The position numbers and the translations under genes are program-made. 5,659 nucleotides of DNA. It comes from a virus. Its lineage: Duplodnaviria; Heunggongvirae; Uroviricota; Caudoviricetes. The notes under the pieces were generated by a model. That model was not told where the DNA came from. It saw only the letters and a list, made by a program, of their open reading frames with translations, and ran no database searches. Shown here in pieces: positions 2,785 through 4,296 of the stretch (positions are counted from its first letter, which is position 1; the number at the start of each line of letters is the position of its first letter). Location: the IMG/VR virus record IMGVR_UViG_2585427766_000017. The stretch is one strand, 5' to 3'.

Positions 2785-4296
2785 ATGGCAGTAAAGATTT
2801 CAGGTGTACTGAAAGACGGCACAGGAAAACCGGTACAGAACTGCACAATCCAGCTGAAAGCAAAACGTAACAGCACCACGGTAGTGGTGAACACGCTGGC
2901 CTCAGAAAATCCGGATGAAGCCGGGCGTTATAGCATGGACGTTGAGTACGGTCAGTACAGCGTTATTCTGTTGGTGGAAGGATTCCCGCCGTCACATGCC
3001 GGGACCATCACCGTGTATGAAGATTCTCAACCCGGTACGCTGAATGATTTTCTCGGTGCCATGACGGAGGATGATGCCCGTCCGGAGGCATTGCGACGTT
3101 TTGAACTGATGGTGGAAGAGGTGGCGCGTAACGCGTCCGCAGTGGCACAGAACACGGCAGCCGCGAAGAAGTCAGCCAGTGATGCCAGCACATCTGCCCG
3201 TGAGGCGGCAACCCATGCGACTGATGCTGCAGGCTCAGCACGTGCAGCCAGCACGTCAGCCGGACAGGCCGCGTCGTCGGCTCAGTCAGCGTCTTCCAGC
3301 GCAGGAACGGCATCAGCAAAAGCCTCTGAGGCATCAAAAAGTGCTACCGCTGCAGAGTCCTCAAAAAGCGCGGCGGCTACCAGTGCCGGTGCCGCGAAAA
3401 CGTCAGAAACGAATGCCGCAGCATCACAAAAATCGGCAGCCACTTCTGCATCCGCTGCTGCAGAAAAGGAGCTTGAGGCTGAAAATCATGCGGCGTCTGC
3501 TGAAGAAAGTAAAACCGTTGCAGAACTCGCAGCTGAGAGGGCTACTTCAGCAGCTCAAAATGCGGCCGTTGATGCCGCAGCTGCAACAGCAACACAATTG
3601 CGCGACGAAGTTCGTGAGGAGATAGACAGGGCCTCAGGGCTGGCTGAAAGGGCCGAAGCAGCAAACGAGGGCGCCTGGCAGGCCCTTGCTAAGGCCCAGG
3701 AAATAGCCAAAACACCAGGGCCACCCGGAGATAAGGGTGATAAAGGGGACAAGGGAGATAAGGGTGATAAAGGGGACAAGGGAGATAAGGGTGATAAAGG
3801 GGGTAAAGGAGATAAGGGCGAAAAAGGTGATAAGGGTGAGGGGGTTGCACCAGCCGGCGTATTGATGACCACCCCGATGGGCACTGATTTTAACGAGGTA
3901 GGTCTTGGAAAATACGCCTATCCACTATTAGGACAGGAAAACAGTAACGCCGCCGCAGTAAGCAATCACCCCATACCAGGTTCAACAGGTAACGCAGCCT
4001 GGGGAGTTGTGTGGGCTGCACCCCGAGGCATCTACCCTGCCCAGATTTTCATGAATTATGAAGGCCAGATGATGTCCAGGATAAAGGCGAACTACGGCTG
4101 GTCGGCCTGGTGGCAGTTCGCCGGTAAACCTCTTAGTGAATACCCGGGGACTTATCTTTTCAGCGTGACGACGGCGGCAGTAAGTTATCTGCAGGAAGTT
4201 TCCGGCAGCAGGCTGACACCACAGCGGGCGGGTACCTGGGTCGCACTTGGGGATGCTGCAGCAAATAGCTCGACATTATTTCAGAGGGTAAGGTAA
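2785..4296 (+). CDS. stf: Side tail fibre protein (lambda Stf-like N-terminus; Ala/Ser-rich shaft; collagen-like GDK repeats; distinct C-terminal domain)
   Basis: From the ATG at 2785 the N-terminus [37 protein letters not shown]...[15 protein letters not shown]...[24 protein letters not shown] matches the lambda Stf N-terminus as I remember it. The ORF track starts at GTG 2779, but ATG 2785 reproduces the lambda start MAVKISG. An Ala/Ser/Thr-rich low-complexity shaft is followed by G-P-P plus (G-D-K)n triplets and a ~150-aa C-terminal domain rich in aromatic residues (W/Y). Confidence 0.88.
3727..3840 (+). repeat. In-frame tandem repeat encoding the collagen-like Gly-Asp-Lys array of the tail fibre (27-bp unit ggagataagggtgataaaggggacaag, two perfect copies then degenerate copies)
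   Basis: Direct reading: 3727-3753 and 3754-3780 are identical 27-mers, and 3781-3840 continues with degenerate 9-nt GDK/GGK/GEK units. Translation is [43 protein letters not shown]. Confidence 0.9.

What the first reader, a model, noticed from the sequence alone, without database searches (positions are those of the whole stretch)
3718..3843. Collagen-like GDK repeat array in the tail fibre is a likely length-variable site
Two perfect 27-bp tandem copies followed by degenerate 9-bp units encode 14 Gly-X-Y triplets. Perfect tandem DNA repeats inside a coding region favour slipped-strand or recombinational expansion and contraction in multiples of 9 or 27 bp, which would change fibre length while keeping the frame. 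The minus-strand ORF 3555..3884 ([10 protein letters not shown]...) is only the antisense image of this repeat.
Basis: partly seen in the sequence, partly recalled or inferred. Interest (0 to 1): 0.5.

Follow-up and report, generated by a model that had tools for sequence, protein, structure and literature searches.

The report
Length-variable collagen-like stalk in prophage tail fibre
A short collagen-like (Gly-Asp-Lys) repeat in the side tail fibre gene of a lambda-like prophage differs in repeat number between related copies, which is a known property of collagen-like phage fibre genes rather than a new mechanism.

Summary
Window 3718-3843 encodes 14 uninterrupted Gly-X-Y triplets (GPP, 8 [18 protein letters not shown]) inside a lambda Stf-type side tail fibre gene (2785-4296).

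The DNA has a 27-bp unit. It is perfectly periodic over 3727-3802. None of 100,000 synonymous-codon shuffles reproduces this.

- The only other GDK-type alleles found have 10 triplets (L204), 11 (L205) and 14 (L201). Their flanks align without gaps.
- L204 has an 18-bp unit instead of 27 bp, which points to independent recent duplications.
- Relatives that share the C-terminal domain carry 0 to 53 triplets.
- Two near-identical alleles from complete E. coli genomes differ by one exact 63-bp indel inside the array.

The protein architecture is PfN, Ala-rich coiled coil, collagen, then C-terminal domain. This matches the published E. coli prophage collagen-like proteins, whose collagen lengths are already known to vary in multiples of three residues. 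The 150-aa C-terminal domain here is a different, uncharacterised and rare one.

Within-population heterogeneity and any effect on the fibre are untested. The J gene in this window is broken, so this prophage copy is probably defective. I rate it a new member of a known kind, of low to moderate interest.

The parts
3718..3843 (+). Collagen-like array: 14 uninterrupted Gly-X-Y triplets (GPP, GDKx8, [15 protein letters not shown]). Predicted triple-helical stalk segment of about 12 nm.
   Evidence: Sequence and translation. Pfam Collagen aa 313-354 at 24.8 bits, below the 27.2 cut-off. Homologous position in relatives holds 0-53 triplets.
3727..3802 (+). Perfectly 27-bp-periodic tract: two full copies plus 22 nt of a third, unit GGA GAT AAG GGT GAT AAA GGG GAC AAG. 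This is the most recently duplicated part and the likely substrate for slippage or unequal exchange.
   Evidence: TRF period 27. The 49-nt perfect self-match at period 27 is reached by 0 of 100,000 synonymous shuffles.
2785..4296 (+). Side tail fibre (stf-like) gene, 503 aa from ATG 2785 (MAVKISG..., as in homologues). The ORF listing starts it at GTG 2779. The TAA stop at 4294-4296 overlaps the next gene's ATG (TAATG).
2785..3186 (+). PfN: prophage tail fibre N-terminal domain (PF08400), the presumed attachment end. About 96% DNA identity to lambdoid E. coli phage stf genes.
   Evidence: PF08400 E=2.9e-72. Phage records match gene positions 1-675.
3187..3717 (+). Ala/Ser/Glu-rich low-complexity segment (A 36%, S 16%, E 11%, L+I+V 5.6%). 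It is PCoil-type, a presumed trimeric alpha-helical coiled coil, and ends in the conserved EIAKTP junction.
   Evidence: Composition. PCoil is described in PMC3368898.
3844..4293 (+). 150-aa C-terminal domain, predicted all-beta; presumed trimerisation or receptor-binding head. No Pfam, PHROG or PDB sequence match. It is rare.
4296..4925 (+). DUF4376 gene, translationally coupled to stf and in the position of a tail-fibre assembly or accessory gene. It travels with this fibre type in relatives.
   Evidence: Pfam DUF4376. PHROG 1141, category 'tail'. Same neighbour in L202-L205, L209 and L212.
3555..3884 (-). Antisense ORF (…LSPLSPLSP…). It is a mirror image of the repeat, not a gene.
   Evidence: Only a sub-threshold low-complexity Pfam hit. 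The opposite strand is strongly supported as coding.

Best explanation
Bases 3718-3843 encode the collagen-like stalk segment of a lambda Stf-type side tail fibre. The protein is modular: PfN attachment domain, Ala-rich coiled coil, (Gly-X-Y)14, then a 150-aa beta-rich C-terminal head.

The array is built at the DNA level from a 27-bp unit of three synonymous GDK codon triplets. Replication slippage or unequal recombination between units adds or removes whole triplets, so the frame is always kept. As a result the array length differs between related alleles.

Each triplet should change the triple-helical stalk by about 0.9 nm and each 27-bp unit by about 2.6 nm. The 14 triplets here would span about 12 nm, against about 9 nm for 10 triplets.

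Shown: the repeat, the gene identity, the architecture, and the variation in copy number and unit length among alleles.

Inferred: the slippage or recombination mechanism, triple-helix formation, stabilisation by Lys(Y)-Gly-Asp(X) salt bridges, and any effect on fibre reach or host range.
For: Repeat anatomy. The DNA periodicity exceeds what the protein repeat requires (0 of 100,000 shuffles).

Gene identity and architecture.

GDK-type alleles:
- The window and L201 have 14 triplets with a 27-bp unit.
- L204 has 10 triplets with an 18-bp unit. Its 47-nt perfect run is reached by 1 of 50,000 shuffles.
- L205 has 11 triplets with no clear higher-order unit.
- Flanks align without gaps: the 300 bp upstream is gap-free at 92% against L204 (against L205 there is a 24-nt indel further upstream in the coiled-coil segment, 86%), and the 453 bp downstream is gap-free at 83-88% against both.

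Family level: proteins with the same N- and C-terminal modules have 10-53 triplets, often in steps of 6 triplets. Some proteins with the same C-terminal domain have none.

Complete genomes: the stf genes of TUM9812 and TUM1881 differ by 8 mismatches in 1425 bp plus one exact 63-bp indel. That indel is one copy of a 63-bp tandem unit.

Literature:
- E. coli prophage collagen-like proteins form trimers with a CD-verified triple helix. Their Col lengths differ in multiples of three residues, at about 2.9 A per residue by EM (PMC3368898).
- A virophage collagen-like gene with 27-nt repeats underwent a spontaneous 81-nt deletion (PMC7242381).
Against: - The only second copy of this exact allele (metagenome contig L201) has an identical array. 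L201 is 100% identical to the window over 3445-5659, so there is no sign of rapid change.
- The alleles with other copy numbers are 8-17% diverged in their flanks, so the rate may be slow.
- The perfect tract is only 76 bp (2.8 units), a modest slippage substrate.
- Many long arrays in the protein set come from short-read or metagenome assemblies, where repeat number can be mis-assembled. Many database proteins start inside the array at contig ends.
- Pfam Collagen is below its curated cut-off.
- The J gene in this window is disrupted. This copy may never be built into a virion.
Confidence: 0.8

Rival explanations
1. The array is a hypermutable contingency-type site. Slippage occurs often enough that a single lysogen or phage population holds a mixture of fibre lengths.
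For: Perfect tandem 27-mers. Lineage-specific units of 27 bp versus 18 bp imply recent duplication events. A 63-bp indel separates 99.4%-identical alleles. There is a precedent for spontaneous deletion in 27-nt collagen-like repeats of a virophage (PMC7242381).
Against: There are only 2.8 perfect units. An independent contig (L201) has the identical array. No read-level data are available. All changes keep the frame, so there is no on/off switching as in classical contingency loci.
Confidence: 0.15
2. The main evolutionary role of the array is as a permissive linker where N-terminal and C-terminal fibre modules are exchanged by recombination. Length change would then be a by-product.
For: - DNA similarity to the E. 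coli alleles that share the C-terminal domain begins only at about 3867, just after the array.
- The same C-terminal domain is joined to at least three different N-terminal modules, with 0-53 triplets.
- The P0140-type gene matches a relative (H76) through PfN and Col, then diverges at the C-terminal domain.
- Collagen-like repeats have been suggested as recombination hotspots in phages (cited in PMC7242381).
Against: - The other mosaic breakpoint in this gene, at about 3445-3455, lies in the coiled coil and not in the array.
- GDK-type and GPQ-type arrays share too little DNA identity to recombine with each other.
- No recombinant junction inside an array was seen.
Confidence: 0.2
3. The perfect repeats are an assembly artefact: a collapsed or expanded repeat, or a chimera.
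For: The window shows a patchwork, frameshifted J gene, which could hint at assembly problems. Related genes often break assemblies inside their arrays.
Against: The whole array is 126 bp and the perfect tract 76 bp, both shorter than ordinary reads. An independent metagenome contig carries exactly the same array while differing at 30 upstream positions and in its upstream neighbour.
Confidence: 0.03
4. The minus-strand ORF 3555..3884 (Leu-Ser-Pro repeat protein) is the real gene.
For: An open frame of 109 aa exists.
Against: The + frame is continuous with a PF08400 domain and a conserved C-terminal domain found in dozens of homologues. The minus ORF has only a sub-threshold low-complexity hit. 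It is open simply because the reverse complement of GGN GAY AAR triplets contains no stop codon in that frame.
Confidence: 0.01

Closest known systems
EPclA-D, the EHEC prophage collagen-like side tail fibre proteins (Ghosh et al. 2012, PMC3368898)
   Same: - N-terminal PF08400 domain.
- Ala-rich coiled coil almost free of Leu, Ile and Val.
- A single (Gly-X-Y)n domain followed by a C-terminal capping domain.
- Location after J and lom in lambdoid prophages.
- Col-domain lengths that differ among copies in multiples of three residues (for example 111 vs 81 aa in Sakai prophages).
- Acidic residues in X and basic residues in Y.
   Different: - The C-terminal domain is not PfC (no PF06820 hit).
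- It does not match the EPclD exemplar Stx2-86 gp21.
- It does not match the EPclC* exemplar EC55989_1078 beyond a 21-column terminal motif (hhalign probability below 1%).
- After the first GPP, the array has no proline at all, whereas EPcl proteins have about 48% Pro in the X position.
- The array is short, at 42 aa.
BclA exosporium protein of Bacillus anthracis
   Same: It has a collagen-like region with a strain-specific number of triplets between an N-terminal anchor and a trimerising C-terminal domain. The polymorphism changes filament length, as stated in the title of Sylvestre et al. 2003, cited in PMC10470788. One E. coli homologue here is even labelled 'BclA protein, partial' by its source (P0136).
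   Different: It is a bacterial spore surface protein, is glycosylated and has mainly GPT repeats. There is no sequence relationship outside the Gly-X-Y pattern. The C-terminal fold of the window protein could not be established.
Guarani virophage ORF8 collagen-like gene (PMC7242381)
   Same: [quoted passage not shown] A spontaneous in-frame deletion of 81 nt (3 x 27) was selected during a host-range shift.
   Different: It is a virophage of giant viruses and an unrelated protein. In that case the deletion was observed experimentally, whereas here only differences between alleles are seen.
Antireceptor genes of Streptococcus thermophilus phages with collagen-like repeats (Duplessis and Moineau 2001, as cited in PMC5601072)
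   Same: Collagen-like repeats separate the domains of a host-recognition tail protein.
   Different: The host is Gram-positive and the protein family is unrelated. I did not read the primary paper.
Lambda Stf (orf-401/orf-314)
   Same: The N-terminal 225 aa are homologous (86% DNA identity to lambda, about 96% to other lambdoid phages). The genomic position is the same.
   Different: DNA similarity to lambda stops at gene position 675, and no phage record carries the 150-aa domain of the window. Its distal part differs and, to my knowledge (not checked here), has no collagen array.

Membership tests
Lambda Stf-type side tail fibre | N-terminal PF08400 (Prophage tail fibre N-terminal) domain above the curated threshold | tested here: met
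   241.4 bits against a cut-off of 26.6, covering aa 3-136 and the full length of the profile. PHROG tail-fibre families match at E=4e-123.
Lambda Stf-type side tail fibre | Gene lies after J and lom and before a fibre assembly or accessory gene in a lambdoid late operon | tested here: met
   J fragments at 37-2053, Ail/Lom at 2121-2720, stf at 2785-4296, DUF4376 at 4296-4925, DUF1353 (PHROG 'tail assembly chaperone') at 4882-5271.
Lambda Stf-type side tail fibre | Assembles as a trimeric fibre on the virion and speeds adsorption | not testable with these tools
   This needs virions. J is disrupted in this window.
Collagen triple-helix repeat (PF01391) | Uninterrupted (Gly-X-Y)n | tested here: met
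   n = 14 at 3718-3843.
Collagen triple-helix repeat (PF01391) | Score at or above Pfam's gathering threshold | tested here: not met
   24.8 bits against a cut-off of 27.2. The array is short. Longer-array homologues carry a precomputed PF01391 hit.
Collagen triple-helix repeat (PF01391) | Forms a trimeric polyproline-II-type triple helix | not testable with these tools
   Shown by CD and EM for the Col-PfC fragment of EPclA (PMC3368898). The monomer AlphaFold model is uninformative here (pLDDT below 50 for residues 1-54).
EPcl prophage collagen-like proteins (Ghosh 2012) | PfN + PCoil (low-complexity coiled coil nearly lacking L/V/I) + Col | tested here: met
   PF08400. Residues 135-311 have A 36%, S 16%, E 11%, L+I+V 5.6%. 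Col is 42 aa.
EPcl prophage collagen-like proteins (Ghosh 2012) | Col length varies among members in multiples of three residues | tested here: met
   10, 11 and 14 triplets in GDK-type alleles. 0-53 triplets in the family.
EPclA/B | C-terminal PfC domain (PF06820) | tested here: not met
   No PF06820 hit at E<=0.01.
EPclD | C-terminal region like Stx2-86 gp21 | tested here: not met
   BLASTP aligns only the collagen and coiled-coil parts. tblastn of the C-terminal domain finds nothing in 50,697 phage records.
EPclC / EPclC* (PfC2) | C-terminal region like EC55989_1078 | tested here: inconclusive
   BLASTP gives no match. hhalign of the family profile against that C-terminus gives probability 0.85% and E=0.065, over a 21-column terminal motif only (GTW.A.G...LFQRI). 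The other EPclC exemplars (ED1a, P-EibA) could not be retrieved.
Phase-variable simple-sequence contingency locus | Repeat unit changes the reading frame or promoter spacing, giving on/off switching | tested here: not met
   The units are 9, 18 or 27 bp, and all observed differences (9, 27, 36, 54, 63 bp) keep the frame.
Phase-variable simple-sequence contingency locus | Length heterogeneity within a clonal population | not testable with these tools
   No reads are available.

The most novel reading that the evidence does not exclude
The GDK array is an almost proline-free collagen helix held together by charge alone, through a ladder of Lys-Gly-Asp salt bridges. It turns over quickly by lineage-specific unit duplication (27 bp here, 18 bp in L204). 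It acts as an evolvable ruler that sets how far a rare, structurally uncharacterised 150-aa receptor-binding head reaches from the tail, and so tunes adsorption or host range.
Probability: 0.25. Interest if true: 0.45.

Novelty: new member of a known kind. Interest (0 to 1): 0.25.

Why it matters
Side tail fibres set how fast lambdoid phages adsorb and on which cells. These include the prophages that move virulence genes among E. coli strains.

An in-frame, unit-wise variable stalk is a simple way to change fibre reach without touching the receptor-binding head. Such arrays also mark places where fibre genes are hard to assemble and annotate.

This case adds a rare GDK-only array and a C-terminal head with no known family to the published E. 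coli prophage collagen-like proteins. It does not reveal a new principle.

Tried and rejected
- **Degenerate (GDK)4 DNA scan of IMG/VR.** It returned more than 120 loci, with pure GDK runs of 4-13. None carries this C-terminal domain. GDK runs are therefore common in viral collagen-like genes and do not help allele comparison.
- **The search for related loci with collagen plus C-terminal domain.** The DKGDKGDK pattern swamped the results. Repeating it with the C-terminal domain alone worked.
- **Exact 27-mer.** 0 hits in IMG/VR, 0 in GTDB representative genomes and 1 metagenome contig.
- [12 protein letters not shown] pattern.** It found only the same two IMG/VR contigs.
- **C-terminal domain in one-genome-per-species contigs.** No hits.
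- **Assignment to EPclA/B, C or D by C-terminus.** Not met or inconclusive. The ED1a record is not in the collection. The search with the P0140-type gene did not help.
- **Sylvestre 2003 (BclA).** The paper is not held, so it is cited only through another paper's reference list.
- **Phase-variation (on/off) reading.** Rejected, because all units are multiples of 3.
- **Coding antisense ORF.** Rejected.

Full report
**What is in the sequence**

The window is the tail-tip end of a lambda-like prophage late operon. The gene order is:
- the distal part of J (ORFs 37-1260 and 1241-2053)
- an Ail/Lom gene (2121-2720)
- a 503-aa tail fibre gene (ATG 2785 to TAA 4296)
- a translationally coupled DUF4376 gene (4296-4925)
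- a DUF1353 gene (4882-5271)
- a DinI-like gene on the minus strand (5411-5659)

In the frame of the fibre gene, bases 3718-3843 encode GPP, GDK x8, [15 protein letters not shown].

Two perfect 27-mers lie at 3727-3753 and 3754-3780, and the perfect periodicity continues to 3802. Tandem Repeats Finder reports period 27, 4.1 copies, 90% matches, score 171.

**Is the repeat more than chance?**

The 27-bp unit is three different synonymous spellings of Gly-Asp-Lys (GGA GAT AAG, GGT GAT AAA, GGG GAC AAG), reiterated exactly. Selection for a GDK protein repeat alone would not reproduce that codon pattern.

I shuffled synonymous codons within the array 100,000 times. No shuffle gave a perfect self-match as long as the observed 49 nt, at any period from 9 to 45. 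The DNA repeat is therefore a trace of recent DNA-level duplication or conversion, not only of protein constraint.

**What the gene is**

- **N-terminal domain.** Residues 1-134 are the PF08400 prophage tail fibre N-terminal domain (241 bits). At the DNA level they are about 96% identical to stf genes of lambdoid E. coli phages and 86% to lambda itself. That similarity stops at gene position ~675.
- **Coiled coil.** Residues 135-311 are Ala/Ser/Glu-rich with only 5.6% Leu+Ile+Val.
- **Collagen-like array.** 42 residues follow.
- **C-terminal domain.** The last 150 residues have no Pfam, PHROG or PDB sequence match.

This architecture matches the published E. coli prophage collagen-like proteins EPclA-D (PMC3368898). 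For those proteins:
- the protein was shown to be a trimer;
- CD showed a true collagen triple helix;
- EM showed a dumbbell with a hinged stalk, with about 2.9 A rise per collagen residue.

That paper already states that Col domains of these proteins differ in length, typically in multiples of three residues.

**The proposed test: copy number across related alleles**

*GDK-type alleles.* The exact 27-mer is absent from IMG/VR and from one-genome-per-species GTDB contigs. It occurs in one metagenome contig, L201. Compared with the window, L201:
- is 100% identical over 3445-5659;
- differs at 30 positions, all in 2771-3444;
- has an IS200-like transposase upstream instead of lom.

L201 has the same 14 triplets.

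Searching IMG/VR with the C-terminal domain alone gave two further GDK-type alleles. A pattern scan confirmed that these are the only two in IMG/VR.

| Allele | Array | Triplets | DNA-level unit |
|---|---|---|---|
| Window, L201 | GPP, GDK x8, [15 protein letters not shown] | 14 | 27 bp |
| L204 | GPP, GDK x8, GEG | 10 | 18 bp; 47-nt perfect run, reached by 1 of 50,000 shuffles |
| L205 | GPP, GDK x9, GEG | 11 | none clear |

The 300 bp upstream of the array aligns without gaps at 92% identity against L204. Against L205 it is 86% identical, with a 24-nt indel that lies further upstream in the coiled-coil segment. The 453 bp downstream aligns without gaps at 83-88% against both. The arrays therefore differ by 9, 27 and 36 bp.

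*The wider family.* Proteins that share the EIAKTPGP junction and the C-terminal domain carry 10 to 53 triplets on otherwise matching N- and C-terminal modules. The series often go in steps of 6 triplets, for example 23, 29, 35, 41, 47. Two proteins carry the C-terminal domain with no collagen at all.

*Complete genomes.* These give the cleanest case. The stf genes of E. coli TUM9812 and TUM1881 differ by 8 mismatches in 1425 aligned bases plus one exact 63-bp indel. That indel is one copy of a 63-bp tandem unit.

**Limits**

- The two copies of this exact allele are identical in the array.
- The alleles that differ are 8-17% diverged in their flanks. What is shown is evolutionary turnover, not high-frequency slippage.
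- Read-level heterogeneity cannot be tested here.
- Long arrays from short-read or metagenome assemblies may be mis-assembled. Many database relatives are fragments that begin inside the array at a contig end. I therefore give most weight to the short arrays (90-126 bp) and to the complete genomes.
- The J gene in this window has a frame change between about 1137 and 1206, and a TGA where relatives have TGG. Part of that stretch is identical to a different J type. This prophage copy is probably defective, so the array may have no phenotype in this element.

**Mechanism**

*Shown:* the array is a tandem DNA repeat. Its unit length differs between lineages and its copy number differs between alleles, always in frame.

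*Inferred from established knowledge:* strand slippage or unequal exchange between tandem units produces such gains and losses.

*Inferred from the homologue study (PMC3368898):*
- the array forms a triple helix;
- the flanking coiled coil and C-terminal domain nucleate it;
- 42 residues x 2.9 A gives about 12 nm, against about 8.7 nm and 9.6 nm for the 10- and 11-triplet alleles.

*From my own knowledge of collagen peptide work (not checked here):* Lys in position Y followed by Gly-Asp/Glu forms stabilising inter-chain salt bridges. This would explain how an almost proline-free (GDK)n could be stable.

GDK runs are common in viral collagen-like genes. More than 120 IMG/VR loci carry at least 4 consecutive GDK triplets. 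This agrees with the published viral preference for Asp/Glu in X and Lys/Arg in Y.

**Comparison with known systems**

The closest family is the EPcl proteins. PfN, PCoil, Col and Col-length variation are all met. The C-terminal domain is different:
- It is not PfC (no PF06820 hit).
- It is not that of the EPclD exemplar Stx2-86 gp21.
- Against the EPclC* exemplar EC55989_1078 it shares only a terminal GTW.A.G...LFQRI motif. That match is not significant (hhalign probability below 1%).

The domain is rare:
- It is in no phage record among 50,697.
- It is in 10 of 5,426 complete E. coli genomes, usually in several copies per genome.
- It is in no representative genome of any other species.

Functional analogues are:
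- BclA of Bacillus anthracis, where a strain-specific number of triplets sets filament length (reference list of PMC10470788);
- the Guarani virophage collagen-like gene, where 27-nt repeats underwent a spontaneous 81-nt deletion during a host shift (PMC7242381).

**Verdict**

The feature is a new member of a known kind. It is a GDK-only, short collagen-like stalk array in an EPcl-like prophage side tail fibre with an uncharacterised C-terminal head. Interest is low to moderate.

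Noticed in passing
window 1130-1260 (J gene; ORFs 37-1260 and 1241-2053): J is split. The frame changes between about 1137 and 1206, and a TGA at 1207-1209 replaces the TGG of relatives. The stretch CTGGCTGAAATCAGGACGTCCATT is identical to a different J type (L205, L202), so this looks like a patchwork junction of two J variants. J is probably a pseudogene and the prophage defective, or else this is an assembly chimera.
   Followed up: partly
L201 (QZMH01000228.1), upstream of the stf start: The only other copy of the 14-triplet allele has the C-terminal end of an IS200-like transposase directly upstream of stf in place of lom. 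All 30 differences from the window lie in 2771-3444, so there is a recombination boundary near 3445 inside the coiled-coil region.
   Followed up: partly
window 3844-4293: The 150-aa C-terminal domain has no Pfam, PHROG or PDB match. It is absent from 50,697 phage records and from GTDB representative genomes. It is present in only 10 of 5,426 complete E. coli genomes, but there in up to 9 places per genome. More distant relatives occur in Salmonella tail-fibre-like proteins (P0148-P0157).
   Followed up: partly
proteins P0126, P0129, P0131, P0133, P0138, P0144, P0146: A second set of proteins begins MTATTGVGGLIYGRALVDQ.TGKK and carries the same C-terminal domain behind 0-37 triplets. P0144 and P0146 have none and instead carry Ala/Thr-rich repeats. 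The head domain is therefore shuffled onto a different N-terminal module. Their genomic context was not examined.
   Followed up: no
L202 3006-4430 (E. coli TUM9812, NZ_CP128926.1): RefSeq annotates only a 348-bp 'incomplete' pseudogene fragment and leaves the next ~1.1 kb unannotated. An intact 474/488-aa fibre ORF, identical to P0002, spans the region. This looks like an annotation gap caused by the low-complexity and collagen segments.
   Followed up: partly
window 2747-2772 and 2776-2787; 4292-4298: A GC-rich hairpin plus a T run (GCCCGCCGGTTCAGGCGGGCTTTTTT) lies between lom and stf. The likely true stf start is ATG 2785, preceded by GGGGTG. The stf stop overlaps the DUF4376 start (TAATG), which suggests translational coupling.
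   Followed up: no
P0003 vs P0004; window 3187-3717: The coiled-coil segment also varies in length. Two otherwise near-identical E. coli proteins differ by exactly 7 residues there, consistent with the heptad-multiple variation reported for PCoil in PMC3368898.
   Followed up: no
C-termini of the window protein, P0181 and EC55989_1078 (L212 6662-8065): Otherwise dissimilar C-terminal domains all end in a similar motif, G(T/V)W.A..G ... (L/I)FQR(I/V)(R/S). It is not statistically significant by hhalign. It may be a shared terminal element, for example for chaperone or DUF4376 interaction, since a DUF4376 gene follows in the window and in L212 (the context of P0181 was not examined).
   Followed up: partly
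proteins P0122-P0143: Many database relatives are 'partial' proteins that begin inside the collagen array at a contig end. Longer arrays of this family evidently break short-read assemblies, so copy numbers from draft assemblies need caution.
   Followed up: no
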